Both the position numbers and the translations under genes were made by a program. Positions 13,285 through 49,077 of a stretch of 64,000 nucleotides of DNA are shown here, one piece after another (position 1 is the stretch's first letter; each line of letters opens with the position of its first letter). Under the pieces are notes generated by a model, which saw nothing but the letters and a program-made list of their open reading frames with translations, ran no database searches and was not told the origin of the DNA. The DNA comes from Candidatus Woesebacteria bacterium (GTDB lineage: Bacteria; Patescibacteriota; Microgenomatia; UBA8517). Location of the stretch: NCBI GenBank assembly GCA_963784785.1, contig CAWASW010000001.1:9312-73311 (forward strand), in the 5' to 3' direction.

Positions 13285-15036
13285 ATGTTAAACTTACAAA
13301 AAATGAAAGTTACGGATTTGATTCAAAAAGGGAACGAAAATGCAGTAACAGGTAACTATAAACTTGCGATAAATTTTTACAAAAAGGTCATAAAAATAGA
13401 TCCAAAAAATGTTATTGCCTGGGGTAATTTAGGCTCAATGCAGGAAAAAATAGGACAAGATGAAGAAGCCTTGTACTCAATAAAAAAGGCAATTGAATAT
13501 GGTCCAGATTATGAAATTGGACTTTACAACTTAGCTCTTCTTTTAATTAAACTAAAAAGGTCAGAAGAAGCTCTAGTTTACCTTGATCGGGCAATTTCAT
13601 TAAATCCTAATAAAATTGATGCGCATTTTAATAAAGGTATCGCAATGCAACGTTTGGGAAATACCGAGGAACAGCTAAAGTCTTTTGAGAAAGTTCTTCA
13701 AATTAAACCAGATTATCCAGATATCATGAATAGATTATGGTTTCTGTACCGTCAAGTGGGAGACTTTGGGAAAGCAGAAAAATTAGAGTTTAAATTGGGT
13801 CAAGGGCATGATCCATTCATAAGTTTAGTTAAATCAGAAGATCCAAAGGAAAACTTGGAGGTAGCCAAAAAAGTTTCTGGTAAGTTATCTGGTTTTGCTC
13901 TAAATTCTAAAATTAAATTTAAATATTCCAAGAGTTCTAAAATTAGACTTGGCTATTTTTCTAATGACTTGAAAGAACACCCAGTTGGCCAAATGGTCTC
14001 TTCAATGTTTAAACATCATGATAGAAATAAGTTTGAAGTTGTGGCCCTATCATACGGTAAAGATGATGGCGGTGAAATAAGAAAAACAATTAAAAAAAAC
14101 GTAGATGAATTTGTAGATTTATCCGGCAGAATGACGGATTTTGAAATGGCCAAGATTATAAATAGTAAAAAAATAGATATCCTGATTGAAATGACAGGGT
14201 ATACAAAAGACACAAGGCTTGGTGTTGCAAGTTTTAGGCCTGCTCCAATTCAACTTCACTTTCTTGGTTTTCCAGGAACACTTGGGGCTGATTTTATAGA
14301 TTATGCAATAGTTGACGAAATAGTTGTTCCCAAAAACGAACAGATTTATTTTACTGAAAAACTTTTGTATTTACCAAGATGTTATCAAGTAAACAGCGAA
14401 GTTAAAATACTAGACAAAATTTACAAAAGAGAGGACTTTGGATTACCCAAAACAGGTTTTGTCTTTGGGTCATTTAATCAGATTTATAAGATAGACAAAA
14501 CAATTTTTACTGTTTGGATGAATATTTTAAAAAGAGTTCCTGAAAGCGTTTTGTGGCTTTTGAACCAATTTCCAGAGTGTGAGATAAATTTAAAAAAAGA
14601 AGCAAAAAGGCAGGGAGTTGATCCTAAACGAATAATATTTGGAAAACATATGCCAAAGTCAGAACATTTAGGACGGCTAAAGTTAACAGATTTGGGGCTA
14701 GATACAATTAATTATGGAGGCCATACAACGACAACTGATTATTTATGGAGCGGAGTACCTGTTATTACAAAATTTGGAAGCCATTTTGCCTCCCGAGTTT
14801 GTTCATCAATTTTATCTGAAGTTGGGTTAAATGAATTAATCGTCAAGGATTTAGAAGCATATGAAGATTTAGCTGTAGAGCTTTCAAATAATCCCAAGAA
14901 ATTAAATAAATATAAAGCTATAATAACTCAAAGTAATTTAAAAACAAACCTATTTGATACAAGTGGGTTTGTCAAAGATTTAGAAAAGATATACACAAAA
15001 ATATATGCTAGATATCACAGAAAAAAGACTAATTAA
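13285..15036 (+). CDS. TPR-repeat protein fused to GT41 (O-GlcNAc-transferase-like) glycosyltransferase domain
   Basis: N-terminal TPR units (AWGNLGSMQEKIGQDEEALYSIKKAIEY...). The C-terminal half has GYFSNDLKEHPVGQMVSS and HTTTTDYLWSGVPVITKFGSHFASRVCSSIL, typical of SPINDLY/OGT-type GT41 catalytic regions. Confidence 0.65.
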   Translation: MLNLQKMKVTDLIQKGNENAVTGNYKLAINFYKKVIKIDPKNVIAWGNLGSMQEKIGQDEEALYSIKKAIEYGPDYEIGLYNLALLLIKLKRSEEALVYLDRAISLNPNKIDAHFNKGIAMQRLGNTEEQLKSFEKVLQIKPDYPDIMNRLWFLYRQVGDFGKAEKLEFKLGQGHDPFISLVKSEDPKENLEVAKKVSGKLSGFALNSKIKFKYSKSSKIRLGYFSNDLKEHPVGQMVSSMFKHHDRNKFEVVALSYGKDDGGEIRKTIKKNVDEFVDLSGRMTDFEMAKIINSKKIDILIEMTGYTKDTRLGVASFRPAPIQLHFLGFPGTLGADFIDYAIVDEIVVPKNEQIYFTEKLLYLPRCYQVNSEVKILDKIYKREDFGLPKTGFVFGSFNQIYKIDKTIFTVWMNILKRVPESVLWLLNQFPECEINLKKEAKRQGVDPKRIIFGKHMPKSEHLGRLKLTDLGLDTINYGGHTTTTDYLWSGVPVITKFGSHFASRVCSSILSEVGLNELIVKDLEAYEDLAVELSNNPKKLNKYKAIITQSNLKTNLFDTSGFVKDLEKIYTKIYARYHRKKTN

Positions 15037-15643
15037 ATTAAAAGATTTAGGTTTTGTGCCGAGAACAGTTTTGGATATTGGTGCATATGTAGGGGACTGG
15101 ACTAAGATGGTTAAAAATATTTGGCCGGCTTCAGAATTTATTATGATTGAAGCAAATGAAGAAGTTGCGCCCAATGGCGCCACTGTTGCACTCTTGGGTA
15201 GAAATGAAGGAAAAGTTACTTATTATAAAACTTCAAATGAATTTAAAACTGGAAACTCAATTTTTTTAGAGCAAACTAGTTATTTCAAAAATAGTGAGAA
15301 AAGAATTTTAGATATGCAGACATTGGATAAATTGGCAATTAAAAACAAATGGAAAAATATAGATTTTATTAAAATTGATACTCAAGGTTCAGAACTAGAA
15401 ATTATTGCAGGTGGATTAAAAACTATTAAAAAGTGCGAGTTCGTACTCTTGGAAACACAAAATTTAACATATAATTTAGGTGCTCCAAAAACGCTAGAGG
15501 TGATGAATAAAATGGATGAACTAGGATTTACTCTCTTTGATATTACAGAACTACACCACATTCCAACAGGGGAAATGCAGGGAGTGGATATGCTTTTTAC
15601 AAGTAAAAAGTCAGAGTTTATTAAGAAGGGATTGTTGTGGTAA
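15005..15643 (+). CDS. FkbM-family SAM-dependent methyltransferase
   Basis: VLDIGAYVGDWT glycine-rich SAM motif; size and layout match Methyltransf_21/FkbM. It overlaps the upstream gene end, so the true start may be further downstream. Confidence 0.55.
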   Translation: MLDITEKRLIKLKDLGFVPRTVLDIGAYVGDWTKMVKNIWPASEFIMIEANEEVAPNGATVALLGRNEGKVTYYKTSNEFKTGNSIFLEQTSYFKNSEKRILDMQTLDKLAIKNKWKNIDFIKIDTQGSELEIIAGGLKTIKKCEFVLLETQNLTYNLGAPKTLEVMNKMDELGFTLFDITELHHIPTGEMQGVDMLFTSKKSEFIKKGLLW

Positions 15644-16698
15644 AAGTGTTAAAAATTGGCTTTGTCAATTTTACACCACTTAAATATGATGTTGATACAC
15701 CACTTCAGGAGCCTTTAGGAGGTTCAGAATCTGCAATGTGCTATCTTGCCGTTCAAATGGCAAGGGATGGACATAGAGTTACACTTTTTAGAAGAAATGA
15801 AGAAGAATTTACTAAAAGTGGGGTACTACATAAATCAGTAAATAAAATAATTACCACCGACCTTGATTTTTTAATTATACAAAACACTCCATTTTTTGGG
15901 TTACAAATAAAAGAAAAAATTAATCCTAAAACAAAGTTAATATATTGGTCACAACATGCCTCAAATCAACCTGCTGTGGAATGTCTTAAAGACTCTAAGT
16001 TCCAAGATATTTACGATGCAATACTACTTTTAAGTGATTACCAAATTGAGGATTATAAAAATGCATTTAAAATTAACCCAACCAAAATAATTAAATTTAA
16101 AAACGCAATTTCACCAGCTTTTGAGAATTTAAATATAGAAAATAAAATCCCATGGTCATATTGCTACACCAGCACGCCATTTAGAGGATTAAAGCTTTTG
16201 CCAGAACTATTTACAAGAGTAAGAGAGGTTAATATTAAGGCAAAACTATTTGTGCATTCAAGCATGGGTACTTATCAAGGAGATAATACAGTGGAGGAAG
16301 AATACCAAGAAATTTATACGGCTATCAAAAACACTGATGGTGCGGTATATAGTGGTTCAATTTCGCAAACTGAACTTTCCGATAAATTATCAAAATATGA
16401 ATATTTGGCCTATCCCAATATTTTTGCTGAAACTTCTTGTATTTCTGTAATGGAAGCTATGGCGGCCGGTTGTCAGGTCGTTACCACCGATCTTGGTGCA
16501 CTACCTGAAACTTCAGCTGGGTTTGCAAGACTTATTAAAATTACAGGTAATGAGGAGGAGTACAAAAGTAGTTTTGTGCGGGAAATGCAAAAACCAATTG
16601 ATAAAAATAGGATAGAAGAACAGGTCAAATTTGTAAGAGAAAATTATACTTGGAAAGTTAGATCTAAAGAGTTGTATACTTTATTACAGAATGTTTGA
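15637..16698 (+). CDS. Glycosyltransferase, GT-B fold (GT4-like)
   Basis: EPLGGSESAMCYLAVQMARDGHRVTLF N-terminal motif and a C-terminal EAMAAGCQVVTTDLGALPE motif typical of GT1/GT4 enzymes. Confidence 0.6.
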   Translation: MVKVLKIGFVNFTPLKYDVDTPLQEPLGGSESAMCYLAVQMARDGHRVTLFRRNEEEFTKSGVLHKSVNKIITTDLDFLIIQNTPFFGLQIKEKINPKTKLIYWSQHASNQPAVECLKDSKFQDIYDAILLLSDYQIEDYKNAFKINPTKIIKFKNAISPAFENLNIENKIPWSYCYTSTPFRGLKLLPELFTRVREVNIKAKLFVHSSMGTYQGDNTVEEEYQEIYTAIKNTDGAVYSGSISQTELSDKLSKYEYLAYPNIFAETSCISVMEAMAAGCQVVTTDLGALPETSAGFARLIKITGNEEEYKSSFVREMQKPIDKNRIEEQVKFVRENYTWKVRSKELYTLLQNV

Positions 16699-17773
16699 TT
16701 TTTTAAATTTCTTTGTAGCTGCTGCCATTTCTTCTTGTACGGTATCCGTTAATCCTGCAAGCTTTGAAAATAATATATCTGATACATTAAATTTTAGTAT
16801 TTCAAATAATGATGAAACAGGTAATCCGATAAGATATATCAGAATTACTTCTCCGTCCTCCAACTTTGTTATAACTTCAGCAAATGGGCCTCAAATTACA
16901 GGCGCTGGAATTAGTGACCAAACAGCAAATATCAAAGTCAATGATATTGATTCTGGTGGGTCTGTTGATATTGGCCTTGGTGTAAATACATTAAATGCAC
17001 AAAATCAGGCTAGCTGGAGTGTTTCTGTTACAGACGATGTTGATGGTAATAATTTAGTTGGGTGCAGTGGAGATACCGGAGTTACCATTACTTCACCTGG
17101 GCAAGCCACGGTAGTAATATCTAATTTATCTGTTGCTGTTTCTGATAGCAGCGCCACAATGTCATGGAGTACAGCGGTTTCTGCCAGTACAATTGTAGAA
17201 TATGGAAAGACCGAGCAATATGGAAGTACCGCAACAGGAACCTCAGAGACTAATCATTCTATAAATTTACCAAGTCTATCTGCAGATACTCAGTATTATT
17301 ACCGTGTAACAAATACTGATGCAGTTGGGAATGTAGCACAAGTCTCAGGAAATTTTAGAACTGCGGTGGCAGGAATAAATACTGAAACAATAGTCACAAC
17401 AACTACGACGGTTACTAATACTGTAAATGTTACAAAAACTTTAGTAGATACTACGCCACCAACAATTCGATTTAAAACTACATTTAAAAAAATATATGAA
17501 GAGGCACCTTTAATTGAAATAGTTTCAACCGATGGGACGGGGATAGCAAGAGTTGAATATTCAATAGATGGGGGAAAGAACTACATACCTATCGGCATTG
17601 AAACTGTTGGAAGTAAACAATTAGTTTCAGAATTTACTCCAGACGCAGTCGAAGATGGAGATTATTCATTACAGGTTAGAGTGACCGATACTACGGGAAA
17701 TAGGACTCTATCTAAAGAAATAAAATTTACGATAGACAGGCTCCCCCGAGACCGTTACATTTCGGTCTCCTAA
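16691..17773 (+). CDS. 5' portion of a surface protein gene (FN3 and Ig-like domains) split by the MITE insertion; its last 9 codons and stop come from the MITE
   Basis: FN3-like segment SATMSWSTAVSASTIVEYGKTEQYGST...DTQYYYRVTNTDAVGN. Removing the MITE and one TSD copy restores an in-frame junction ...FTIDRLP|PRVGPLTVMAGP... with ORF 17930..18700. Confidence 0.55.
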   Translation: MFDFLNFFVAAAISSCTVSVNPASFENNISDTLNFSISNNDETGNPIRYIRITSPSSNFVITSANGPQITGAGISDQTANIKVNDIDSGGSVDIGLGVNTLNAQNQASWSVSVTDDVDGNNLVGCSGDTGVTITSPGQATVVISNLSVAVSDSSATMSWSTAVSASTIVEYGKTEQYGSTATGTSETNHSINLPSLSADTQYYYRVTNTDAVGNVAQVSGNFRTAVAGINTETIVTTTTTVTNTVNVTKTLVDTTPPTIRFKTTFKKIYEEAPLIEIVSTDGTGIARVEYSIDGGKNYIPIGIETVGSKQLVSEFTPDAVEDGDYSLQVRVTDTTGNRTLSKEIKFTIDRLPRDRYISVS

Positions 17774-17942
17774 AACACACTGATTTTACTATACTTTCGG
17801 CCTAAAAAGGTAGTTTCACTAAGTAAACGCTTCTACAACCAATTTCAGCATTGTCCGAGTAATCGGACGAAAGTGTTATTATTTTAACGAAAAACAACAA
17901 ATCATTTAAGGCTAAACAAGTGACCGTTTATGCAACGGTATC
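17748..17942 (-). mobile_element. MITE copy A (about 195 bp), flanked by a 9-bp TSD GGCTCCCCC; inverted relative to copy B
   Basis: 100% identical, reverse-complemented, to 21089..21281. Termini match the TIRs of the IS at 24734..25904. The interior has three hairpins (GAGACCG-N8-CGGTCTC, GTCCGA-ttac-TCGGAC, ACCGTT-N6-AACGGT). The direct repeat GGCTCCCCC abuts both ends. Confidence 0.65.
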
Positions 17943-18700
17943 GGCTCCCCCCGCGTGTTGGGCCTCTTACAGTCATGGCTGGGCCAATTTCTATAAATAG
18001 CGGTATCTCCGAAATAACGGAATTATTGGTAGGTGTTGAGTATAAATTTATACTAACTGCAGCAGGAGGACCTAATAAAATTAATATGAAATGTAAAGAC
18101 AATATTTATAAATTTACAAAAAATAACGACGTAGGAGTTTGGACAACTAAAGTTAAGTTTTCAGAAGAAGGACAATATTTACCTGAAATAGTTGCAGAGG
18201 ACGGAGCAGGAAACATAGAAACAGTGAACAGTGAACAATTGAAAGTTAACGGTTTAGGAAAACTCAAAAATGGAATAATCACTGTTTACTGGTACGATAA
18301 TTTTGAGAAAAAATTTGTGAAGTGGGATGCAGAACCTTATGGACAAGTTAATCCAATTAATACTAATGACTTAGCTGGTTATTCTATATTGTTACCAAGT
18401 GGAAAGTATTATCTTGAGGCAAAAGCTATTGGAAAAAGAACAAGTGTAACTAATATTATAGAGACTCATGAAACAGTTTATATAAATGACGATTGGGAGC
18501 TATCACCGTCATGGAAATTTTGGCAATTTAGAGAACAGAAAATTGTTAATCCTAAAAAGCTTGGTAATGAATCTTGGAAGGATGTTAGTTTTGCTCTTCC
18601 AAAAGTTAACTTAAATAATTTATCGACCTTAGATATTCGAGGAAAAAAACAGTTGTCAGTTTGTTATCTTCATGGCATCCATCTACAAATGATTATCTAA
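17930..18700 (+). CDS. 3' portion of the MITE-split surface protein (Ig-like repeats), reading from an ATG supplied by the MITE terminus
   Basis: Begins atgcaacggtatc|ggctcccc, with the first 13 nt in the MITE. In frame with ORF 16691..17773 once the MITE is removed. AEDGAGN/VTDTTGN Ig-like repeats continue the upstream domain pattern. Confidence 0.5.
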   Translation: MQRYRLPPRVGPLTVMAGPISINSGISEITELLVGVEYKFILTAAGGPNKINMKCKDNIYKFTKNNDVGVWTTKVKFSEEGQYLPEIVAEDGAGNIETVNSEQLKVNGLGKLKNGIITVYWYDNFEKKFVKWDAEPYGQVNPINTNDLAGYSILLPSGKYYLEAKAIGKRTSVTNIIETHETVYINDDWELSPSWKFWQFREQKIVNPKKLGNESWKDVSFALPKVNLNNLSTLDIRGKKQLSVCYLHGIHLQMII

Positions 18701-18966
18701 AAGTAATCGATGAATTAATTAAAAATAAATATAGTGCTTTCCCAATTTTGGTGCAAGAAAAAGAGACATCTGCAACAGCTCTCGAAAGAAGAGGCAAATA
18801 TGGAGCTAATATTTATGCTGATCCAGACGGAGAGATTTTAAATGAAGTTGTCATCTCTGGTTTGCCAACAACTTGGATAGTCAATAGATTTGGACAGGTT
18901 GTAAAAACAAAGGTAGGTGGAATATCCTTTCAGGAAGTGCTTGAAGTACTGAATAGTATAGATTAA
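18661..18966 (+). CDS. TlpA/thioredoxin-like (redoxin) C-terminal segment lacking the CxxC cysteines; joined to 17930..18700 through a frameshift at an A7 run near 18640
   Basis: GLPTTWIVNRFGQVVKTKVGGISFQEVLEVL matches the C-terminal end of TlpA/ResA redoxins. The position of WCPPC reads SSWHPST. One extra A in the ggAAAAAAAcag run fuses the frames (DIRGKKKTVVSLLSSWHPST...). Confidence 0.45.
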   Translation: MLSSWHPSTNDYLKVIDELIKNKYSAFPILVQEKETSATALERRGKYGANIYADPDGEILNEVVISGLPTTWIVNRFGQVVKTKVGGISFQEVLEVLNSID

Positions 18967-19064
18967 CAGATTGCTTCACTTTTGTTCGCAATGACACACA
19001 TAAAAGTATGTACTAAAAGTTATTGGCTTATCAAATTGGGAGTTAGTGCAAGAACAGTCAAACG

Positions 19065-19440: not shown

Positions 19441-20937
19441 ATGTGGATAATATTTGCCTTAGAAAATTTATATTTTGCTTTAAATATCTTTGCTTCTCTT
19501 ACTTTTTTTTCAGTAGCTTGGCTTTACTTTGATGCGTGGAAGGCCTTGAGATCAAACAGAGAAATTTGGAAGATTGTAGCCTTTATTATTTTAGGAATAT
19601 CTTTTTTGTTTCGAGGAATGGACATGAGAGGTGTTGAAATTTTTCAAAGCTTAGATATTTACTTGAGAGCTTTAGGCTATATGCTGTTAGTTGTAGGTTT
19701 AGTTATAGATCCACTCCAACCTCGTCCTGAGGACGATCGGCCTTTGGCTGATAAAAATATGGCATTTGTTTTGATCGCTTTTCCTCCACTTTTTTTCTTG
19801 TCACCAGTATTAGCTGCAATAGTTGCAGTTCTGTATTTAAGACGGGCTAGTATTGGGCTTGAACGTCATATTTACCCACCTGCAATCTCTTTCTTTTCTC
19901 TATCTATTTATGAATTAACTTTTAGCTTAAATAGTTTTAGAGTTACTGATAATTTAAATTTATTTAATATTTTGGCTCCATTTGGGCCTATGTGGTTGGC
20001 CAATTTAGCATTTTTATTTTTAGCAATTTTATTTTTAGGAAGATGGGTTTTTAGATATTTACTAAAACAATTTCAGTCTCAACTTTTTATGGTTATGATG
20101 AGTTTGGTTTTGTCAGTTTATTTAATAGTTACAGTTAGTTTTACTGGTCTTCTTCTAAACAATTTAAAGACTCAGATACTACAAGAACTTACATCAGAAG
20201 CTAAAGTTTTGGAATTTGCATTTAATGCAAAAAAGAGTGAACTACTGTCACTAGCACAACTTCTTGCAAGGTCGGACCCTGCAGGTTTGGCAGGGTCCGA
20301 CCTTAACACGAGCTCTCACGATTCTTTAGTTGTTTTTGACAAAGATGGCCTTGTCACATATCGTGCTGAAGACACCGAGAGGAAAGGGGATTCGATTTCG
20401 GGGGATAATTTAGTCAAGCAAGTTTTGTCTGGCAAGGAAAATTCAAACATAGTAGTTAAAGAAGGAGTAACGGCTCCAACAGTAATGATAGTTTCAGGTG
20501 CTCCAATAATGGCAAACGGAGTAGTCAGTGGTGGCGTTATCGTCGGTGATTTGATTGATAACTCATATCTTGAGGGTTTTAGTAAGCTAACAGGACTTAA
20601 ATCTGCAGTCTATGGAAATAATATATTAAGTGCAGGTGGAACCGTTGGAATTACTGAAACTGATTCTAAGATAAAAGAGACGGTTTTAACAAAAGGTGAA
20701 ACCGTAGCTCTTGAAAATAGATGGTTAAATTATGCTTTCTTGTCTGTTTATTCGCCACTTAAAGACGTTGACGGAAACCCTGTAGGAATGTACTTTGTAG
20801 GTCGCCCTCAAGTAGAAGTTTTAAATCTTGCTAGTAAAACTTTGGAGTCGGTTTTCTTGGGTACAATCTTCTTGTTGTTATTATCGATGATACCTGCAAA
20901 GCTTATAGCAAATAGTATTACAAAACAAATTAAATGA
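19441..20937 (+). CDS. Polytopic membrane protein with C-terminal extracytoplasmic sensor-like domain and terminal TM, no output domain (truncated-sensor-like)
   Basis: Multiple N-terminal TM helices, a roughly 200-aa soluble region, then TM VFLGTIFLLLLSMIPAKLIA; ends just before a non-coding stretch and MITE-B. Confidence 0.5.
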   Translation: MWIIFALENLYFALNIFASLTFFSVAWLYFDAWKALRSNREIWKIVAFIILGISFLFRGMDMRGVEIFQSLDIYLRALGYMLLVVGLVIDPLQPRPEDDRPLADKNMAFVLIAFPPLFFLSPVLAAIVAVLYLRRASIGLERHIYPPAISFFSLSIYELTFSLNSFRVTDNLNLFNILAPFGPMWLANLAFLFLAILFLGRWVFRYLLKQFQSQLFMVMMSLVLSVYLIVTVSFTGLLLNNLKTQILQELTSEAKVLEFAFNAKKSELLSLAQLLARSDPAGLAGSDLNTSSHDSLVVFDKDGLVTYRAEDTERKGDSISGDNLVKQVLSGKENSNIVVKEGVTAPTVMIVSGAPIMANGVVSGGVIVGDLIDNSYLEGFSKLTGLKSAVYGNNILSAGGTVGITETDSKIKETVLTKGETVALENRWLNYAFLSVYSPLKDVDGNPVGMYFVGRPQVEVLNLASKTLESVFLGTIFLLLLSMIPAKLIANSITKQIK

Positions 20938-21043
20938 CGGACAAAATTATATTTAGTATAGGGATTTTTATTAGTTTGGTAATTGTGTGTACAAGTGGGT
21001 TTTTGTTTTATAAAACCCAAACAGTTAAAATTGCAAGTGACGA

Positions 21044-21064
21044 GTTACGAGTTACGAGTATTCA
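21044..21064. repeat. Heptanucleotide tandem repeat (ACGAGTT x3)
   Basis: acgagttacgagttacgagta read directly from the sequence. Confidence 0.6.
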
Positions 21065-21088
21065 AACCCCTGAACCGACGATGAAAGA

Positions 21089-21281
21089 TACCGTTGCATA
21101 AACGGTCACTTGTTTAGCCTTAAATGATTTGTTGTTTTTCGTTAAAATAATAACACTTTCGTCCGATTACTCGGACAATGCTGAAATTGGTTGTAGAAGC
21201 GTTTACTTAGTGAAACTACCTTTTTAGGCCGAAAGTATAGTAAAATCAGTGTGTTTTAGGAGACCGAAATGTAACGGTCTC
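21089..21281 (+). mobile_element. MITE copy B, flanked by a 9-bp TSD ACGATGAAA
   Basis: Exact reverse complement of 17748..17942; ACGATGAAA is present on both sides. Confidence 0.65.
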
Positions 21282-21284
21282 ACG

Positions 21285-21539
21285 ATGAAACCACAGCCAC
21301 AGATAGATTACAAAAACATTGAAATAGAAGTATTAAATGGGTCGGGAATAAGTGGGCAGGCAAAAATATTTGCTAATAAATTAGAAAAACTTGGCTACAC
21401 AAAAGTTTCAACTGGTAATTATAAAGAAATAGTTGATCGTGGTTTATTGCTTGCTCCAACTGACTTCGGTAAAGAAATTAACATGGTTGATTACATCTAT
21501 CAAAAAGATGAAAAGACAAAAATAATAATTTCAAAATGA
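21285..21539 (+). CDS. LytR_C-like (LCP C-terminal) small domain protein
   Basis: IEIEVLNGSGISGQAKIFANKLEKLGYTKVSTGNY matches the LytR C-terminal domain signature (V.NGtg..GlA..vA..L...Gf.v...gNa). ATG at 21285 lies in the MITE TSD; the ORF-track start at 21249 is inside the MITE. Confidence 0.45.
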   Translation: MKPQPQIDYKNIEIEVLNGSGISGQAKIFANKLEKLGYTKVSTGNYKEIVDRGLLLAPTDFGKEINMVDYIYQKDEKTKIIISK

Positions 21540-21935: not shown

Positions 21936-21963
21936 GGCTTAATGGAACTAATGTGTTGTTTTT

Positions 21964-22491
21964 CTAATCCTGTTTTGTTTTATTATCGGCCTTCATTTTT
22001 TCAAAGTTGTAATAATATACAAACCATTTAAGGTAACTTTCCCAACGAGTCTTTTTAAGGCCTTTATGTCTTAACCATCTTTGTCCTATATGCCCAAATG
22101 TAGCTTCAATTTCATTTGTTGTTTTTGGCATAGTTGGGTGGTCTAAAAACTTGAATGAGGTTTTTGGAAGTTTAATTAGGATCCTGACAGCTTTTCTCAC
22201 ACCTTTATGAATATACCAACTGTGGCCAGAATCATCTGTCCTCATCTCTTTCAGAAAGAAGAAATTAGCCTTAACCCAATCTTTTAAGATTGTTTCCCAG
22301 TATTTCAAAGCTTCATGACTTTCTATGAACCAAATGTGGTTTGCAATTTTTATTAATTCTTCAATTCTTCTATCTTTTGAGTGTCTACCAAGTGCATTTA
22401 CAATATCTCTATGCATATGAGCAAGACATATCTGATGTGGAGAGTGGGGGATACACTTCATCAACCGCAGAACAAATGGCAGTTCCTCCAT
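21964..22491 (-). CDS. Transposase C-terminal part (+1 frame relative to 22409..22987; junction at a C5 run)
   Basis: HQICLAHMHRDIVNAL continues the alignment with the 24752 transposase (VWQLCQNHYKHNL). Frames fuse if the C-run in tatCCCCCactc is one shorter. Confidence 0.6.
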   Translation of the reverse strand: MEELPFVLRLMKCIPHSPHQICLAHMHRDIVNALGRHSKDRRIEELIKIANHIWFIESHEALKYWETILKDWVKANFFFLKEMRTDDSGHSWYIHKGVRKAVRILIKLPKTSFKFLDHPTMPKTTNEIEATFGHIGQRWLRHKGLKKTRWESYLKWFVYYYNFEKMKADNKTKQD

Positions 22492-22987
22492 CTGTTACAG
22501 AGCCTGAAAATGTGTATTTTAATTCCTCCTTTATGAACCTCAAATCCTTAACTATTTTTGTTGAAGCCTCTCTACCAGCAATAGATACATGCAAAAGGTA
22601 CAAAGTTCCACTTTGTCTATACAGCATCAAGACAAACCATCTTCCAAACCAAAGCCCATCAATCAAAAGATATGCAGTATCAATTCTTCCAGACAAAGTT
22701 TGATCAAATCTAGGAAGTTTTGGAGGATCAAGAAGCAATAACTTATGAAATTCACCCTCCAAATATCTTACAGACAAACCTGAGACAGAAGACAGCATTT
22801 CATATGTCAAACCCCACAAAATATACTGTCTGAAAAGATCAACTACTTTAAAATCTTTCTTTTTATTGTGGTAAATTCTTGAAGTTTTACAAACTTTACA
22901 AAACCATCTTTTCTTTCCAGTTCCAGTCTTTCCCCACAGAAACATTTTACTATTACAGGATATGCACAAAAGTGTTCTTTGACCCAT
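22409..22987 (-). CDS. Transposase N-terminal part (C4 zinc finger, HTH, start of DDE domain)
   Basis: CISCNSKMFLWGKTGTGKKRWFCKVCKTS zinc finger; LLIDGLWFGRWFVLMLYRQSGTLYLLHVSIAGRE aligns with LLVDGKYVKVKGYDRKIPVIYGIDYLTHDIVHFVFGPSE of the 24752 transposase. Confidence 0.65.
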   Translation of the reverse strand: MGQRTLLCISCNSKMFLWGKTGTGKKRWFCKVCKTSRIYHNKKKDFKVVDLFRQYILWGLTYEMLSSVSGLSVRYLEGEFHKLLLLDPPKLPRFDQTLSGRIDTAYLLIDGLWFGRWFVLMLYRQSGTLYLLHVSIAGREASTKIVKDLRFIKEELKYTFSGSVTDGGTAICSAVDEVYPPLSTSDMSCSYA

Positions 22988-23193
22988 TGAATACTATTCA
23001 AACTCAAAATGAGGCGTATTATCAACTATATCTTTCTGTTATATCAACACACTATGCTATTAAGCCAAAATATATTGTAAAGTCTGAATTTGAGCCAAAA
23101 CAAATTGTAGATATGGTTAAAGAAATCTTAGCAGGTTACACAAGAGACTCAATTCCTGAAACAAAGTAATATTTTAACATCGTACGTACTCCA

Positions 23194-24668: not shown

Positions 24669-24733
24669 TTCAAAGTTGTTTAGTCCTAAAAAGATAGTAT
24701 GATTAATACATGCTCTCTATTAGAACAAAAGTA

Positions 24734-25904
24734 GATACCGTTCATAAACGGTCACTTGATAAGCTTCAGAACGTCTTCAATTTTGTAATTGTCTTTTAAA
24801 GTTTGTTGTAACGATGATTTTCCATTTAGTTTTTTAAATTGTTTGGTGCAGTCTGTAAATGGTTTTAATCGCCTTTTTAAAAAATAAGCATTGAGCCAGA
24901 GTTTCGCTGTTTTGTAGTTTTGAAAACCTTTGATTGTTTTAAGCCTGCCTTGAAGATGTGAGTTGAAACTTTCGATTAAGTTGTTTGTTCTTGGAATGTG
25001 AGGCATCTTTGTATATGCAAAAAGATCAGCTGATCTTTTTGCAATATCAAGCATAACTTTTTTGCATAAATCATCTTTGGTTGCATATTTGTTGTATATT
25101 TTTGAAGCTCTACTTTTAAAATCTTCAGTTGATATTTTGTTTGAAAATAATGTTTCAATTTCATTCATAAAAGGTCTGTAAGTTGGGTCATTGTTTAAAT
25201 TTAAAGTTGTTCTTAAATTGTGTTTGTAGTGGTTTTGGCACAGTTGCCAGACTGCAGTGGGATAAACACTTAAACACGCCTGTGGCGTGTTCTGGTTGTC
25301 ATCTGAAATAATTGCTTGAAGTGGATAATTTGCAAGCTTTAGTGAAGAGAAAAACTTAAGAAGTAAGCTGTAATTTTCTGAAGGTCCAAAGACAAAATGG
25401 ACTATATCATGTGTAAGGTAATCAATGCCATAAATAACAGGGATTTTTCTGTCATAGCCTTTGACTTTGACATATTTGCCATCAACTAAAAGTATCCCAC
25501 AAAACCTGTTGCAATAATTTCTTGTGATATCAATACAAAGTGGCAATCTTTCTAAAACTTCAAAGTAAGCTTCATATGATTTTCCAACTGATATTTTTAA
25601 ATCATCTGCAATTGTTCTAAAAGATAAACCTGACATGTGAGATAACAACAACTTTGAAGAATTTAACTTCTTAGCTCTATTTATTTGAAAATAGCAACCA
25701 CAATCTTTGCAAAAATACTTTAATTTCCCACGTCTAACACCTTTTTTAATTACATCTTTTGAAGAACATCTAGGACAACTATAAACTCTTTTTTCATGCC
25801 TGAATGATACCAGAATTAAGAAAGCTTCACATAGTCAAAACACCAACTTGGATGGAATTATAGGGATTAACTACCAAAATAAGTGACCAAAAATGAACGG
25901 TCTC
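24734..25904 (-). mobile_element. IS element (about 1171 bp) of the same zinc-finger/DDE family; parent of the 195-bp MITE; 24-bp imperfect TIRs; 9-bp TSD ACAAAAGTA
   Basis: Left end GATACCGTTCATAAACGGTCACTTG (24734-24758) against right end AAGTGACCAAAAATGAACGGTCTC (25881-25904). ACAAAAGTA is directly repeated at 24725-24733 and 25905-25913. MITE termini match these ends. Confidence 0.65.
24752..25797 (-). CDS. Transposase (zinc finger + HTH + DDE, about 349 aa), needs a +1 A in an A6 tract directly after the ATG
   Basis: The frame upstream of the track ORF encodes (K)RVYSCPRCSSKDVIKKGVRRGKLKYFCKDCGCYFQINRAKK... The only ATG (25795-25797) sits one frame off: atgAAAAAAgag. Seven A's would give MKKRVYSCPRC... 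Confidence 0.55.
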
Positions 25905-27392
25905 ACAAAAGTAATATTAATTTTAGCTATTGGTACACTTTTTATATTAATTTCTTCAATTGTTTTTACCTCAAAGTTGATTGGTCAGAAATTAGATGAA
26001 CTAGAAGTCCGTAGTGCTGTAATAGACTTACAGAGGATAGATGGAGCTATAGCTTCCGAAAAAAGTAATTTATTGGATAAAATATCTGATTGGGCTTCTT
26101 GGGATGATACATATCAGTTTGTAAAAGATAATAATACTGCTTATATAAAATCAAATTTACAGCAGACTACCTTTGATAGTTTAAGACTTAGCTTTATGAT
26201 CTTCTTGGACGTCAATGGTAATACAGTGCATGAAGTAAAAGCCCCCGTTGGTATTAATAAATATTTAGTAAAAGATGAATTTTTGTTGAAATTTGATAGT
26301 TTAAAGTCAAATAAGTCAGGCATGATAATGCTTCCTGATGGTATGTATTTGGTTGCTTCTAAACAAATACTTAATAGTGCTTCTGAAGGTCCGGCAAGAG
26401 GAACATTAATTTTTGGTAGGTACTTCGGTAAGCAAGAAATAGATAAAATAGCAATTTCAACTAAACATGATGAAATTAGATTGCTTTCGATGGGTTCTCA
26501 AAAAATGAATGACACAGAAATAACTAACACTAATGAAAATATCTTATCTGCTAAAAATGTTGTAAAAGACATTTTTGGTAAAAATATTGCATATTATGTT
26601 GTAGACATAGAACGTGGAATTCATCTACAGGGAATTCAGAGTACTCAATATACGATTGGGTTTTTGATAGGTATTAGCATTATTTTCTTTGTAATGGTTT
26701 TATTTTTCTTAGCATCTCTCGTTTTGTCTCCACTTAAAAAAATATCATCAGATGCAAATAACATAACTCAGTCTAAAAACTTTATGCTTCGAGTGAAACA
26801 TGAATCTAAAGATGAAATTGGGCTACTTTCAAGAAATATAAACGAAATGCTTGACTCACTCCAGTTGGCAAAAGATGCCGTCTATTCAGAGACCGAAAAA
26901 ATTAAGACATTTTTCGATGTCGTTTCGGGAATAGTAGTGGTTATTAACAAAGATGGTGTTGTCGTTTCTGTTAATCAAAAAGGCGCAGAATTTTTAGAAT
27001 ATGAAACAAATGAGATCGTTGGTAGGAATTGGTTTGACGTCTTTATCCCAGAGGAAGATAAAGAAAAAATGAAGCAAACATTTGTCGACATGGTTACTAA
27101 TATCAGCGCAGACAAAAATAAATATTTTGAAAATCTAGTTGTTACAAAGTCCGGTAAAAAATATTTAATGGGATGGCACAATAGTTTGTTGCTAGACAGA
27201 AATAGGAATATCCTAGCATCTGTCAGTCACGGAGAAGATATTACGGACAAAAGGAAGATAGAAGATGATGAAAAATCACAAAAAGAAGAGCTGGAAAAAT
27301 TAAACCAACTAATGATGGGTAGAGAGATTAAAATGATTGAACTTAAAAAGGAAATTGAAAAATTGAAACAGAAAGATGAAAATACGCAATAG
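25893..27392 (+). CDS. Membrane signal-transduction protein (TM - periplasmic sensor - TM - HAMP-like - PAS - coiled coil; no kinase domain) with an IS-derived start codon
   Basis: PAS-like core FFDVVSGIVVVINKDGVVVSVNQKGAEFLEYETNEIVGRNWFDVF. Its ATG lies 12 nt inside the IS right end. The original start MLSIRTKV... is at 24710, on the other side of the IS. Confidence 0.55.
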   Translation: MNGLTKVILILAIGTLFILISSIVFTSKLIGQKLDELEVRSAVIDLQRIDGAIASEKSNLLDKISDWASWDDTYQFVKDNNTAYIKSNLQQTTFDSLRLSFMIFLDVNGNTVHEVKAPVGINKYLVKDEFLLKFDSLKSNKSGMIMLPDGMYLVASKQILNSASEGPARGTLIFGRYFGKQEIDKIAISTKHDEIRLLSMGSQKMNDTEITNTNENILSAKNVVKDIFGKNIAYYVVDIERGIHLQGIQSTQYTIGFLIGISIIFFVMVLFFLASLVLSPLKKISSDANNITQSKNFMLRVKHESKDEIGLLSRNINEMLDSLQLAKDAVYSETEKIKTFFDVVSGIVVVINKDGVVVSVNQKGAEFLEYETNEIVGRNWFDVFIPEEDKEKMKQTFVDMVTNISADKNKYFENLVVTKSGKKYLMGWHNSLLLDRNRNILASVSHGEDITDKRKIEDDEKSQKEELEKLNQLMMGREIKMIELKKEIEKLKQKDENTQ

Positions 27393-28185
27393 AATATTAG
27401 TAACAATACTTTCAGTTGTCATCCTGATTGTTGGACTGGACTCGGTAATAATTTTCTTTTTTGCCCAAAAATATTTAAGTACTGCTTCACAAAATTTGCT
27501 TACAACAACATCTAGATCCAAATCAGAAAACATTTCGACGCTAATTAATGAACAAAAACAGAATGTAATTGATATTGCAACAGCATCAATATTTAGGGAT
27601 TATTATGTTGATACTACAAATATTGTAAATAAAGATAAAGTGCAGCAAAGACTTGAGAGGACAATAAAGGGAAATCCGGCAATTAGGGAGATATATATAC
27701 TCGATGTTTCAGGAGTTGTTCTCTTATCAACTGATGAGGAAGACTTTGGGAAAAATATTATGGCGGATGACAACATTGCAGAGGCCAAAAATGGGCCAAG
27801 TGTTGGAAACGTACGTTTATATGGTGATGACAAAAAAACAATTTATACAATTTCCGCACCGATTTTTAACTCCTCATCGATTCTTGCTGGTATTTTTGTT
27901 GTACGTTTTAATACTAATTTTATAAATACTATAGTTTCTAGTGGATCTGAAACAACAAAAAGTGAAGATGTTTTTTTAGTTGATAAAAATTATTATTTCT
28001 TAACACCAACACGATATTACAATCAGGATGCGGTTTTGTCAAAAAAAGCTGAAACATTAAACGTTCAAAGATGTTTTTCTCAGGACGAAATAATATATGT
28101 TTCGGAGCGATTGACTGGACAAAGATATGTAAATGAACATCGTGGGCATCCTGCAATAACTTTAGCTCATTTTGGCTACACATAA
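27376..28185 (+). CDS. N-terminal part of a sensor histidine kinase (TM + Cache-like extracytoplasmic domain)
   Basis: N-terminal TM then a roughly 230-aa sensor domain; overlaps the next ORF at a T4 run. Confidence 0.5.
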   Translation: MKIRNRILVTILSVVILIVGLDSVIIFFFAQKYLSTASQNLLTTTSRSKSENISTLINEQKQNVIDIATASIFRDYYVDTTNIVNKDKVQQRLERTIKGNPAIREIYILDVSGVVLLSTDEEDFGKNIMADDNIAEAKNGPSVGNVRLYGDDKKTIYTISAPIFNSSSILAGIFVVRFNTNFINTIVSSGSETTKSEDVFLVDKNYYFLTPTRYYNQDAVLSKKAETLNVQRCFSQDEIIYVSERLTGQRYVNEHRGHPAITLAHFGYT

Positions 28186-29737
28186 TTATATTCCTGAAAT
28201 CTCGGCCTGTTTGATTGCAAAAATTGATAAAACTGAAATCAACACTCCTATTTTTAATTCTGCTGTTGCAATTATTGCCACGATGGGTTTGGGTGTGGCC
28301 ATAATCGCTATTATTATTAACTTTTTTTTGAATAAGATTGTTGGTCCGCTTGAGAGTTTGAAAAAGGGAGCTGAAGAGCTTCAGAACGGAAACCTAGAAG
28401 CTGTGATTAAAATCGATTCCAATGATGAAATAGGTGAAGTATCCAAGGCGTTTAACTCCATGGCCGTAAAACTTAATGAGTTATACAAAAATCTTGAGTT
28501 AAAAGTTACGGACAGAACTTTGGAGTTAAATAGCAAATTGTTGCAAATTGAAGATCAAAACAAAAAACTTGACCAAAATAAATCAGCAATGCTTAATTTA
28601 CTAGAAGATTCTAAGACACTTGAAGAGGAATTAAAAGCTGAAAAGCAATCAGTTGAAAAGAAAATTATTGAAAGAACTAGAGAAGTTGATGAAGAAAAGA
28701 CAAAGCTGATGGCCGCTATTGAGGCTTTAACAAAAGCTTTTGTCATGATGGACTTAAATGGAGAAATTATTCTTGTAAATGAAAATCTTAATAAAATTTT
28801 TAATTTAGAGAAACAGAATTGGTTAATATCTGACATACAAGAACAATTAGGCGACAGTTTTGATTTTGTAAAAGCATATAAAAACAATATTCTTGAAAAG
28901 AAAAAGATGGTATATGACGATATAGCATTAGGTTCGAAAATCTTACAAATTCGTTTTAGCCCAGTTTTTGATAAAGATAAAGTGAATGGCGTACTTGCAA
29001 TAATTGGAGACGTAACTGATGAAAAAGTGTTGGCAAGATCCAAAGACGAATTCTTTTCAATAGCCAGTCATGAATTAAGAACTCCTCTTACTGCAATAAG
29101 AGGAAATACCTCAATGATGCTTGATTATTACAAGGAGTCATTTAAAGATCCTGAATTAAATCAGATGCTTTTAGATACTCATGAGGCTAGTGTCAGATTA
29201 ATAGGCATCGTAAATGACTTCTTAGACATGAGTAGGTTAGAGCTTAGTAAGATAGAATTTAAAATGGAAAAAATTATCTTGGGTGATCTCATTGGAGAAG
29301 TTTTGAAAGAATATAAGGTTACAGGTTTACAAAATAAGTTGTATTTGAAATTTGTTGAGTCAAAGACAGAAATACCGGCTGTAAACGCTGATGTTAATAG
29401 AGTTAAACAAGTTGTAATTAATCTTATTGGAAATAGCGTTAAGTTTACTAAAGAAGGTGGTATATCTATTAGCTTGACTTATAACAACGATTTTGTAGAA
29501 GTGCATGTAGCCGATACTGGCTATGGAATACCTCTTGCAAATCAGTCATTGCTGTTTAGAAAATTTCAACAAGCTGGAGATAGTACCTTAACTAGAGATG
29601 GTGCCAAAGGTACTGGCCTTGGACTATACATCTCTAAACTTATGGTTGAGGGTATGGGAGGTAAGATATTTTTGGAAAAATCAGAGGAAAATAAAGGTTC
29701 TACTTTTACATTTAGCCTGCCTGTTTTTAAAAAGTAG
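28172..29737 (+). CDS. Sensor histidine kinase core (TM, HAMP, coiled coil, PAS, HisKA, HATPase_c)
   Basis: HAMP: LESLKKGAEELQNGNLEAVIKIDSNDEIGEVSKAFNSMAVKL. H-box: FFSIASHELRTPLTAIRGN. N/G boxes: INLIGNSVKFT, DTGYGIP, GTGLGLYISK. Confidence 0.75.
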   Translation: MATHNYIPEISACLIAKIDKTEINTPIFNSAVAIIATMGLGVAIIAIIINFFLNKIVGPLESLKKGAEELQNGNLEAVIKIDSNDEIGEVSKAFNSMAVKLNELYKNLELKVTDRTLELNSKLLQIEDQNKKLDQNKSAMLNLLEDSKTLEEELKAEKQSVEKKIIERTREVDEEKTKLMAAIEALTKAFVMMDLNGEIILVNENLNKIFNLEKQNWLISDIQEQLGDSFDFVKAYKNNILEKKKMVYDDIALGSKILQIRFSPVFDKDKVNGVLAIIGDVTDEKVLARSKDEFFSIASHELRTPLTAIRGNTSMMLDYYKESFKDPELNQMLLDTHEASVRLIGIVNDFLDMSRLELSKIEFKMEKIILGDLIGEVLKEYKVTGLQNKLYLKFVESKTEIPAVNADVNRVKQVVINLIGNSVKFTKEGGISISLTYNNDFVEVHVADTGYGIPLANQSLLFRKFQQAGDSTLTRDGAKGTGLGLYISKLMVEGMGGKIFLEKSEENKGSTFTFSLPVFKK

Positions 29738-49074: not shown

Positions 49075-49077
49075 AAC

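What the first reader, a model, noticed from the sequence alone, without database searches (positions are those of the whole stretch)
16691..18966. A surface-protein gene split by the MITE, with an A-run frameshift and a cysteine-less redoxin-like C-terminus
Deleting MITE-A plus one TSD copy joins ORF 16691..17773 in frame to ORF 17930..18700 (...FTIDRLP|PRVGPLTVMAGP...). One ancestral gene of about 750 aa (FN3 + Ig-like repeats) was interrupted. The MITE supplies the stop for the 5' half. Its terminus also supplies an outward ATG (atgcaacggtatc|ggctcccc = MQRYRLPP) that is in frame with the 3' half, so the distal half could be re-expressed. Further downstream, an A7 run at about 18640 separates the Ig-like part from a TlpA/ResA-like redoxin fold in which the WCxxC active site reads SSWHPST. 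That would be a redox-inactive thioredoxin-like module on a surface protein.
Basis: partly seen in the sequence, partly recalled or inferred. Interest (0 to 1): 0.55.

Follow-up and report, generated by a model that had tools for sequence, protein, structure and literature searches.

The report
MITE-split surface-protein gene with cysteine-less thioredoxin domain
A gene for a roughly 690-residue secreted protein of a Woesebacteria-like bacterium has been cut in two by a 195-base mobile element and also carries a one-base frameshift. Its cysteine-free thioredoxin-like end is real, but it is normal for the whole protein family, so this is an ordinary, recently broken gene.

Summary
A 195-nt non-coding element (17748-17942) sits between perfect 9-bp direct repeats (GGCTCCCCC). 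An identical inverted copy lies at 21087-21281 with its own 9-bp repeats, and a third identical copy lies in another assembly.

Removing the element plus one repeat (204 nt) recreates the family's most conserved motif, IDRLPPRVGP. Adding one A to the A7 run at 18643-18649 gives a 690-aa protein. More than 40 homologues of 515-766 aa match it as single ORFs over 98-100% of its length.

The C-terminal 130 residues are a ResA/TlpA-type thioredoxin fold (profile E 3e-18; Foldseek TM about 0.7). The active site reads W-H-P-S-T. 180 of 181 family representatives lack both cysteines, so the redox-dead state is ancestral and not decay of this copy.

The element's ends and repeat length match an IS256-family insertion sequence at 24734-25904.

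In six loci the gene heads a conserved Cache/PAS sensor-kinase cluster. Here that cluster holds four insertions and probably a second frameshift, so it is being dismantled.

Whether the A7 frameshift is real or a Nanopore homopolymer error is unresolved. Re-expression from the element's ATG is possible in sequence terms but unlikely to yield a functional surface protein.

The parts
16691..17747 (+). 5' half of the ancestral gene (codons 1-352): short signal-like N-terminus, conserved N-terminal beta-sandwich with a Cys16/Cys125 pair, an FN3 / Pur_ac_phosph_N-like domain, a Thr-rich linker and a Big_13 Ig-like domain
   Evidence: ORF list; Pfam Big_13 3.9e-16, Pur_ac_phosph_N 2.8e-07; AF2 model pLDDT 88; alignment to homologues
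17739..17747 (.). Left copy of the 9-bp target-site duplication GGCTCCCCC
17748..17942 (+). MITE copy 1. It is 195 nt with stops in all six frames. The termini are GAGACCGTTACAT... and ...ATGCAACGGTATC, and each terminus forms a hairpin. It carries the TAA stop (17771-17773) for the 5' half, a terminator-like hairpin at 17851-17870 and an outward ATG at 17930.
17943..17951 (.). Right copy of the 9-bp target-site duplication GGCTCCCCC
17952..18649 (+). 3' half up to the A-run: two Ig-like beta-sandwiches (Big_3_4-like), a CarboxypepD_reg/transthyretin-like sandwich, and the first ~30 residues of the thioredoxin-like domain
   Evidence: (precomputed PF13620 on homologues)
18643..18649 (+). A7 run. 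A8 (or a -1 shift) is needed to stay in the family reading frame (..RGKKTVVSLLSSWHPST..).
   Evidence: homologue DNA has no shift at this site
18572..18966 (+). C-terminal ResA/TlpA-like thioredoxin-fold domain (residues ~560-690 of the repaired protein). It is read in two frames because of the A7 run. The active-site position reads W-H-P-S-T, and the cis-Pro (LPTT) is retained. The stop is at 18964-18966.
21087..21281 (-). MITE copy 2, 100% identical and inverted, with 9-bp duplications ACGATGAAA at 21078-21086 and 21282-21290. It splits a LytR_C gene (20934.., 133 aa when repaired).
24734..25904 (-). Putative autonomous relative: a 1171-bp IS256-family insertion sequence (Zn-binding variant transposase). 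Its termini are GATACCGTTCAT... and ...ATGAACGGTCTC, with a 9-bp duplication ACAAAAGTA (24725-24733 and 25905-25913).

Best explanation
Region 16691-18966 is the remnant of one gene. It encoded a ~690-aa exported protein with these parts in order:
- a signal peptide;
- an N-terminal beta-sandwich;
- an FN3-like domain and a Thr-rich linker;
- three or four Ig-like / transthyretin-like sandwiches;
- a C-terminal ResA/TlpA-type thioredoxin fold with no cysteines.

The gene belongs to a family restricted to Woesebacteria-like Patescibacteria. In that family it is the first gene of a Cache/CHASE4/PAS histidine-kinase cluster.

Shown here:
- A 195-bp non-autonomous IS256-type element (MITE) transposed into the codons of the invariant DRLPP linker motif and duplicated 9 bp.
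- The element terminates the 5' half after 8 foreign codons.
- The 3' half additionally needs a -1 correction in an A7 run.

Inferred:
- The insertion is very recent, because three copies are 100% identical.
- It was catalysed in trans by an IS256-family transposase such as the one at 24734-25904.
- The gene is now non-functional as a whole. At most a truncated exported N-terminal fragment (residues 1-352, which ends at a domain boundary) is made.
- The loss belongs to a wider decay of the sensor cluster. That cluster holds four insertions and probably two frameshifts within 13 kb.

The cysteine-less thioredoxin domain is an ancestral, conserved feature. It most likely acts as a binding module and not as an oxidoreductase.

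Sub-probabilities:
- MITE insertion into a single ancestral gene: 0.95.
- A7 frameshift being a real mutation and not a Nanopore consensus error: about 0.6.
- Thioredoxin-like module acting as a binding domain: 0.6.
For: MITE:
- Identical inverted copy.
- Perfect 9-bp duplications at both window copies.
- A third identical copy with a 7-bp duplication in L004.
- Stops in all frames, and nothing in Rfam.
- An independent de Bruijn assembly of run ERR12037365 breaks exactly at the copies.

Parent-type IS:
- Same terminal 12-26 nt and the same 9-bp duplication.
- IS256 family transposase: PF00872 6.6e-12, NF033543 3.5e-20, NF048019 1.2e-12.

Single ancestral gene:
- 41 homologues are single ORFs covering 98-100% of the repaired protein.
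- The repaired junction KFTIDRLPPRVGPLTVMAGP is identical to P0001-P0003. D349, R350, L351 and P353 are invariant.

Frameshift:
- ResA and 3hdc alignments run across the A-run.
- Homologues read GK..VV.L.SSWHP without a shift.

Thioredoxin fold without cysteines:
- ResA 3.3e-18; TM 0.65-0.76.
- 180 of 181 representatives lack the CxxC, while W, P, the cis-Pro, E and DxDG stay conserved.

Operon context and decay:
- Synteny with Cache/LytR_C/CHASE4/PAS/HisKA genes in L002, L003, L008, L009 and L010.
- In the window: the LytR_C gene is split, the response regulator is split by a second IS, an IS sits in the first codons of the CHASE4 gene, and a dCache-HAMP-HisKA kinase is split at a T4 run.
Against: - No intact or A8 allele of this gene exists in the 15-billion-protein collection, so the pre-insertion state is reconstructed and not observed.
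- The contig spans 100% identical 1.1-kb repeats, so it must come from long reads. The assembly that shares identical elements with it (MFD02832.bin.3.209) is Nanopore-only with one Medaka round. Its authors report problems with homopolymers longer than 6 in low-GC genomes (PMC12313526). The A7 run could therefore be a consensus error.
- The MITE resembles the IS at 24734 only over the terminal ~26 and ~20 nt. It is not a simple deletion derivative of that copy.
- Function of the protein family and mobilisation of the MITE are both untested.
Confidence: 0.85

Rival explanations
1. The only real lesion is the MITE. The A7 run is a Nanopore/Medaka homopolymer undercall of a true A8, so the 3' part of the gene is intact in the organism.
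For: The window contig must be long-read derived, because it spans two 100% identical 1131-bp IS copies and two MITE copies. It shares identical elements with a Microflora Danica Nanopore-only MAG. That project reports trouble with homopolymers longer than 6 in low-GC MAGs. The MITE copies are 100% identical, so little time has passed for a second mutation.
Against: Only 1 of 56 A/T runs of 7 or more in the window gives a clear frameshift, and the run-length spectrum looks like that of Illumina-derived relatives. A k-mer assembly of the same run gives the same A7, though from the same reads. A second probable frameshift in the same operon lies in a T4 run, where Nanopore errors are rare. Lesions cluster in this operon and are not spread over the window.
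Confidence: 0.4
2. The distal half is re-expressed from the ATG carried in the MITE terminus (MQRYRLPP...). The insertion would then convert one gene into two expressed products.
For: The ATG at 17930 is in frame. Most genes in this window have no Shine-Dalgarno sequence, so its absence is not an obstacle. The related IS at 24734-25904 also supplies an in-frame terminal ATG (MNGL+TKVIL...). That ATG replaces the first five codons of the CHASE4 sensor gene. The gene caller behind the public collection called the 256-aa ORF.
Against: The product would lack the signal peptide of an otherwise exported protein, and it ends prematurely at the frameshift. A terminator-like hairpin (17851-17870) lies upstream of the ATG inside the element. 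No promoter-like site lies between that hairpin and the ATG. The ATG sits in the loop of the terminal hairpin. Being in frame has a 1-in-3 chance. The ATG at the element's other terminus is followed at once by TAA.
Confidence: 0.1
3. The A7 run is a programmed -1 frameshift or transcriptional-slippage site that normally yields the full-length protein.
For: GGA AAA AAA C contains an A AAA AAA slippery heptamer in the correct phase. A-run slippage is known to rescue frameshifted genes in AT-rich genomes (general knowledge).
Against: All 41 homologues are continuous ORFs. The two examined at DNA level read GGA AAA AAC TCA and GGT AAG AAT AGT, with no shift. The site is therefore not conserved. 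The gene is also interrupted upstream.
Confidence: 0.05
4. Two or three naturally separate genes lie at this position, and the apparent continuity is coincidence.
For: Gene callers report three ORFs of 360, 256 and 101 aa.
Against: The junction restores an invariant motif. The thioredoxin fold is split across two frames.
Confidence: 0.01

Closest known systems
Bacterial MITEs derived from insertion sequences (for example Correia elements of Neisseria and RUP of Streptococcus pneumoniae; here IS256-family type)
   Same: Short (195 nt) and non-coding, with imperfect terminal inverted repeats, fixed-length target duplications (9 bp, as for IS256-family elements), several identical copies, insertion into genes, and termini shared with a transposase-encoding IS in the same genome.
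   Different: It is not a simple internal-deletion derivative of the IS copy in the window. Only ~26 nt and ~20 nt at the ends are alike. The host is a Woesebacteria-like Patescibacteria lineage. One full-text search for MITE + candidate phyla radiation + insertion sequence returned nothing on this subject. Mobilisation has not been shown.
ResA / TlpA / CcmG (DsbE) / StoA extracytoplasmic thiol-disulfide oxidoreductases
   Same: Same fold, including the N-terminal hairpin and central insert. The W before the active site, the cis-Pro loop, an acidic residue after beta3 and the DxDG motif are conserved. The location is also extracytoplasmic.
   Different: Both active-site cysteines are absent, reading W-[S/L/H/A]-P-x-[A/S/T], in 180 of 181 representatives. 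The domain is the C-terminal module of a ~730-aa multi-Ig protein and not a membrane-anchored single domain. Thiol-disulfide chemistry is therefore excluded.
Redox-inactive thioredoxin-fold modules such as the b and b' domains of protein disulfide isomerase (general knowledge, not tested here)
   Same: A thioredoxin fold that has lost the CxxC motif and is kept as a structural or ligand-binding domain within a multidomain secreted protein.
   Different: No sequence relationship was shown. The fusion partners (an Ig-like chain) and the genomic context (a sensor-kinase operon) differ. Binding function is inferred only.
Multi-Ig bacterial adhesins and S-layer proteins (SiiE, ice-binding adhesin, SbsB)
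   Same: The full-length model is a chain of beta-sandwich domains, and its best structural matches are these proteins. Pfam finds Big_13, Big_3_2 and fn3-like domains.
   Different: It is much shorter, has no repeat expansion, ends in a thioredoxin fold, and is conserved next to sensor kinases and not next to secretion systems.

Membership tests
MITE (non-autonomous IS-derived transposon) | Small size and no coding capacity | tested here: met
   195 nt, stops in all six frames
MITE (non-autonomous IS-derived transposon) | Terminal inverted repeats | tested here: met
   GAGACCGTTACAT / GATACCGTTGCAT, 11 of 13 identical. The consensus occurs only at the four termini in the window, against 0.18 expected.
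MITE (non-autonomous IS-derived transposon) | Target-site duplication at each copy | tested here: met
   9 bp at both window copies; 7 bp at the L004 copy
MITE (non-autonomous IS-derived transposon) | Several copies at unrelated sites | tested here: met
   Three 100% identical copies: two in the window and one in L004
MITE (non-autonomous IS-derived transposon) | A transposase-encoding element with matching termini and duplication length | tested here: met
   IS at 24734-25904 with the same terminal motif, a 9-bp duplication and an IS256-family transposase
MITE (non-autonomous IS-derived transposon) | Mobilisation in trans by that transposase | not testable with these tools
   Needs a transposition assay
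ResA/TlpA/CcmG thiol-disulfide oxidoreductases | TlpA-type thioredoxin fold | tested here: met
   Profile against PDB: ResA 3.3e-18. AF2 domain model pLDDT 88. Foldseek hits to ResA, Etrx1 and TlpA at TM 0.65-0.76.
ResA/TlpA/CcmG thiol-disulfide oxidoreductases | WCxxC active-site dithiol | tested here: not met
   WHPST in the window. No Cys in the domain in any of the 41 homologues. 180 of 181 representatives lack it.
ResA/TlpA/CcmG thiol-disulfide oxidoreductases | cis-Proline loop opposite the active site | tested here: met
   P658 is invariant. Its cis conformation is not verifiable here.
ResA/TlpA/CcmG thiol-disulfide oxidoreductases | Redox activity | not testable with these tools
   Needs a biochemical assay. 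It is expected to be absent without cysteines.
Woesebacteria-type ~730-aa Ig-chain protein with C-terminal Cys-less thioredoxin fold (unnamed family) | Collinear full-length match to family members | tested here: met
   After repair, 98-100% coverage with E down to 2.9e-244
Woesebacteria-type ~730-aa Ig-chain protein with C-terminal Cys-less thioredoxin fold (unnamed family) | One uninterrupted ORF with a typical signal peptide | tested here: not met
   Three ORFs in the window. The N-terminal leader is only 15 aa with no basic residue, against 25-30 aa in homologues.
Woesebacteria-type ~730-aa Ig-chain protein with C-terminal Cys-less thioredoxin fold (unnamed family) | Position directly upstream of Cache/PAS sensor-kinase genes | tested here: met
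   Window plus L002, L003, L008, L009 and L010
Programmed -1 frameshift site | Out-of-frame arrangement and slippery run conserved in relatives | tested here: not met
   Homologues are continuous. L002 and L003 DNA has no shift at this site.

The most novel reading that the evidence does not exclude
The protein family itself, and not this broken copy, may be a previously undescribed extracellular component of a two-component signalling system in Woesebacteria-like Patescibacteria. It would be an Ig-domain stalk carrying a redox-dead ResA-like head that binds a ligand or partner and passes the signal to the adjacent Cache/CHASE4/PAS kinases. In this genome the whole module is being dismantled by a burst of IS256-type elements, whose termini carry outward start codons that can re-start interrupted genes.
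Probability: 0.25. Interest if true: 0.5.

Novelty: new member of a known kind. Interest (0 to 1): 0.3.

Why it matters
As a single locus it matters little. It is a clean, datable example of gene inactivation by a MITE in a lineage with a small genome, and a warning that the three ORFs called here are fragments of one gene.

Two by-products are more useful.
- First, the analysis delimits an unnamed, widespread family: at least 138 clusters at 50% identity. These are exported Ig-chain proteins whose ResA-like end has universally lost its cysteines, and they always sit in front of sensor kinases. That gives a testable idea for a ligand-binding accessory protein in organisms whose surface biology is largely unknown.
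- Second, it documents an active IS256-type IS/MITE pair, with outward-facing start codons in its ends, in a Patescibacteria-like genome.

Tried and rejected
- Rfam and tRNA scans found nothing at the element. It is not a known RNA gene or intron.
- Invertible segment between the two inverted MITE copies: rejected. Each copy keeps its own matching pair of duplications, so no inversion has happened since insertion.
- The 1131-bp IS at 21936 as parent of the MITE: rejected, because its termini differ (GGCTTAATGG...).
- Testing for systematic homopolymer undercalling gave no clear result. Three cases were examined:
  - The A6 case at the start of the IS256 transposase also occurs in an independent Illumina-derived homologue (L005), so it is a conserved feature and not an error.
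  - The ComEC split at A6 (59838) is ambiguous. The downstream ORF has its own plausible ATG and membrane anchor.
  - The homopolymer length spectrum is unremarkable.
- Exact look-up of the repaired allele, the A8 allele and the MITE-free allele found none in the collection.
- Supplementary tables of PMC12313526, which might tie run ERR12037365 to the Nanopore data set, are not held.
- Foldseek with the full-length model returned only generic multi-Ig proteins. The domain model was needed to see the thioredoxin fold.
- Pfam did not extend the dCache_1 match across the putative kinase frameshift, so that second frameshift stays probable and unproven.
- One full-text search for papers on MITEs in candidate phyla radiation bacteria and one for cysteine-less TlpA-like domains returned nothing directly relevant.


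Full report
**1. The observation**

The region contains three same-strand ORFs: 16691..17773 (360 aa), 17930..18700 (256 aa) and 18661..18966 (101 aa).

Between the first two lies a 195-nt segment, 17748-17942. It is 100% identical to an inverted copy at 21087-21281. Its terminal 30-mer occurs exactly twice in the window, against 0 expected.

Copy 1 is flanked by a perfect 9-bp direct repeat, GGCTCCCCC. Copy 2 is flanked by ACGATGAAA. Each copy keeps its own matching pair, so the 3.1-kb segment between the inverted copies has not flipped since insertion.

The element has stops in all six frames. It has no Rfam or tRNA match. Its tips are imperfect inverted repeats, GAGACCGTTACAT and GATACCGTTGCAT. 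That consensus is found only at the four termini in the window.

A third 100% identical copy, with a 7-bp duplication, lies in a 379-kb contig of another assembly: L004, MFD02832.bin.3.209. A k-mer assembly of run ERR12037365 breaks about 29 nt into each copy, as expected for a genuine repeat. It is otherwise identical to the window over 7.3 kb.

**2. One gene, interrupted**

Deleting the element and one repeat (204 nt) fuses the first two ORFs in frame. Adding one A to the A7 run at 18643-18649 fuses the third. The result is a 690-aa protein.

The in-frame fusion is automatic, because 195 + 9 is divisible by three. The strong evidence comes from homology:
- A search of 5.8 billion protein clusters returned 49 hits. 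Forty-one of these are single ORFs of 515-766 aa, aligned, and most cover 98-100% of the repaired protein, with E down to 2.9e-244.
- The repaired junction, KFTIDRLPPRVGPLTVMAGP, is identical to the three closest homologues.
- The junction lies in the family's most conserved motif. D349, R350, L351 and P353 are invariant.

The 5' fragment ends 8 codons into the element (RDRYISVS, then TAA at 17771-17773). This is exactly at a domain boundary, so a truncated exported fragment could still fold.

The N-terminal leader here is only 15 residues and has no basic residue. Homologues have a 25-30-residue signal peptide. This may be a further defect.

**3. The frameshift**

PDB sequence matches (3hdc 2.8e-08; ResA about 5e-06) align continuously from about 20 residues before the A-run to the C-terminus. 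Homologues read ...IRGK(x)xVVxLxSSWHP... without interruption. The shift therefore lies inside the thioredoxin-like domain and not between domains.

Homologue DNA reads GGA AAA AAC TCA (L002) and GGT AAG AAT AGT (L003) at this site. There is therefore no conserved slippery site, and a programmed frameshift is unlikely.

I could not settle whether A7 is real.

For an artefact:
- The contig spans 100% identical 1.1-kb repeats, so it must be long-read derived.
- It shares identical elements with a Microflora Danica MAG. Those MAGs are Nanopore-only with one Medaka round, and the authors note problems with homopolymers longer than 6 in low-GC genomes (PMC12313526).

For a real mutation:
- Only one of 56 A/T runs of 7 or more gives a clear frameshift, and the run-length spectrum resembles that of Illumina-derived relatives.
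- A second probable frameshift, which splits a dCache-HAMP-HisKA kinase at 28165, lies in a T4 run, where Nanopore errors are rare. Pfam did not confirm continuity there.
- All lesions cluster in this one operon.

I put the odds at about 60:40 for a real mutation. No repaired, A8 or MITE-free allele is present in the public protein collection.

**4. The thioredoxin-like end**

- Pfam Redoxin and AhpC-TSA hits on the single sequence fall below their thresholds.
- A profile built from 22 family members hits ResA at 3.3e-18. It also hits StoA, CcmG/DsbE, Etrx and TlpA.
- An AlphaFold model of the domain has pLDDT 88 and the expected beta-alpha-beta order. It superposes on ResA, Etrx1 and TlpA at TM 0.65-0.76.
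- The WCxxC position reads W-H-P-S-T.

This is not peculiar to the window. None of the 41 homologues has any cysteine in the domain. A profile search of 1.84 billion representatives found 138 proteins at E of 1e-30 or better. Among 181 family sequences, 180 lack the motif, reading W-[S/L/H/A]-P-x-[A/S/T]. The W, the following P, the cis-Pro, an acidic residue after beta3 and DxDG stay 88-100% conserved.

The domain is therefore a fold member of the ResA/TlpA group, but it cannot be a thiol-disulfide oxidoreductase. Strong conservation without catalytic residues points to a binding or structural role. That role is inferred, by analogy with the redox-inactive b and b' domains of protein disulfide isomerase (general knowledge).

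**5. The rest of the protein and its context**

The full-length model (pLDDT 88) is a chain of beta-sandwiches ending in the thioredoxin fold. Its structural neighbours are adhesins and S-layer proteins. Pfam finds Big_13, Big_3_2 and an FN3 / Pur_ac_phosph_N-like domain. The named homologues come from Candidatus Woesebacteria.

In all six loci examined, at 28-55% identity, the gene lies directly upstream of, and on the same strand as, genes for:
- a Cache-domain membrane protein;
- usually a small LytR_C protein;
- CHASE4/PAS/HisKA kinases;
- response regulators.

This suggests an extracellular accessory role in a signalling module (inferred).

In the window this module is riddled with lesions:
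- MITE copy 1 in the surface-protein gene.
- MITE copy 2 in the LytR_C gene.
- A different 1131-bp IS (21936-23066, 8-bp duplication AAAATATA) in the response-regulator gene.
- An IS256-family element in the first codons of the CHASE4 sensor gene.
- The probable kinase frameshift at 28165.

**6. Origin of the MITE**

The 1171-bp element at 24734-25904 has termini GATACCGTTCAT... and ...ATGAACGGTCTC. These match the MITE over about 26 nt at one end and about 20 nt at the other. It has a 9-bp duplication (ACAAAAGTA) and an IS256-family transposase of the zinc-binding variant. The MITE is therefore a non-autonomous member of this IS group. It is not a direct deletion derivative of this copy.

**7. 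The outward ATG**

The CAT in the terminal repeat gives an outward ATG at each end. At the MITE's right end it is open and in frame with the 3' half (MQRYRLPP...). At the left end it is followed by TAA.

At the IS, the terminal ATG replaces the first five codons of the CHASE4 gene in frame: MLSIR becomes MNGL, followed by TKVILIL.... That gene may well still be expressed.

For the surface-protein gene, functional re-expression is unlikely:
- The product would lack a signal peptide.
- It would still be frameshifted.
- It lies behind a terminator-like hairpin with no promoter-like site in between.
- Its ATG sits in a terminal hairpin.

The absence of a Shine-Dalgarno sequence is not an argument against re-expression, because most genes in the window lack one.

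**8. Verdict**

This is a recently inactivated member of an uncharacterised but widespread Patescibacteria protein family, broken by an IS256-type MITE. It is a new member of known kinds and of modest interest. The family-level points have more value: the universally cysteine-less ResA-like head and the constant linkage to sensor kinases.

Noticed in passing
window 20934-21539 (MITE copy 2 at 21087-21281): The second MITE copy splits a small membrane-anchored LytR_C-domain gene. The gene is 133 aa when repaired. Intact 135-146-aa orthologues sit at the same position in L002, L003 and L008. An ATG inside the duplicated target could restart the LytR_C part without its anchor.
   Followed up: partly
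window 24734-25904 and 25893-27392: A 1171-bp IS256-family element with a 9-bp duplication is inserted after codon 5 of a CHASE4-HAMP-PAS sensor gene. The ATG in the IS terminus is in frame and gives a new start (MNGL replaces MLSIR). The gene may therefore survive the insertion.
   Followed up: partly
window ~25785-25800 (minus strand); L005 ~1165-1180: The transposase of this IS needs a -1 shift right after ATG AAA AAA G to reach its N-terminal zinc-finger (CPRC...CKDC) frame. No in-frame start exists otherwise. The same arrangement occurs in a 75%-identical copy from an independent groundwater metagenome. It therefore looks like a conserved frameshift or slippage signal and not an error.
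   Followed up: partly
window 21936-23066 and 49110-50240; L004 856-1986: A second IS of 1131 bp, with termini GGCTTAATGG.../...ATTAAGCC, is present in three 100% identical copies. Its transposase is in two overlapping ORFs (192 + 175 aa) with a C5 run in the overlap. The copy at 21936 has an 8-bp duplication (AAAATATA) and cuts the last ~25 codons off a response-regulator gene (21629..).
   Followed up: partly
window 27376-29737 (junction near 28165-28172): A dCache_1 ORF (269 aa) and a HAMP-HisKA-HATPase ORF (521 aa) overlap in different frames. Removing one T from a T4 run gives a canonical 786-aa sensor kinase. This is probably a second frameshift in the same operon, but Pfam did not confirm it across the junction.
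   Followed up: partly
window 58802-60594 (A6 run at 59838): The ComEC competence domain and its metallo-beta-lactamase domain are in two overlapping ORFs. One extra A in an A6 run would fuse them. The second ORF also has its own ATG followed by a membrane anchor. The split may therefore be natural or may be a frameshift.
   Followed up: partly
window 18970-18997, 49073-49106, 63916-63949: A short, partly palindromic motif of about 30 nt (GTGTCATTGCGA...GCAATC) occurs three times, against 0.16 expected for its 12-mer. One copy lies directly after the stop codon of the gene studied. It may be a small repeat or a terminator element.
   Followed up: no
L004 (CAVZPH010000003.1): The record is titled 'uncultured Actinomycetota bacterium'. 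Yet the 8-kb stretch is 35% G+C and carries elements 100% identical to the window, whose named protein relatives are Woesebacteria. The taxonomic label looks wrong, or the bin is mixed.
   Followed up: no
window 13285-16698: A TPR + GT41 (O-GlcNAc-transferase-like) gene, an FkbM-type methyltransferase gene and a GT1/GT4 glycosyltransferase gene lie directly upstream. The last one overlaps the start of the surface-protein gene. A TPR-GT41 gene is also adjacent in L008, which hints that the exported protein may be glycosylated.
   Followed up: no
window 16691-16740: The leader peptide of the broken gene (MFDFLNFFVAAAISS|C) is about half the length of those in homologues and lacks the basic n-region. 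The 5' end may have been truncated when the upstream glycosyltransferase genes were juxtaposed.
   Followed up: partly
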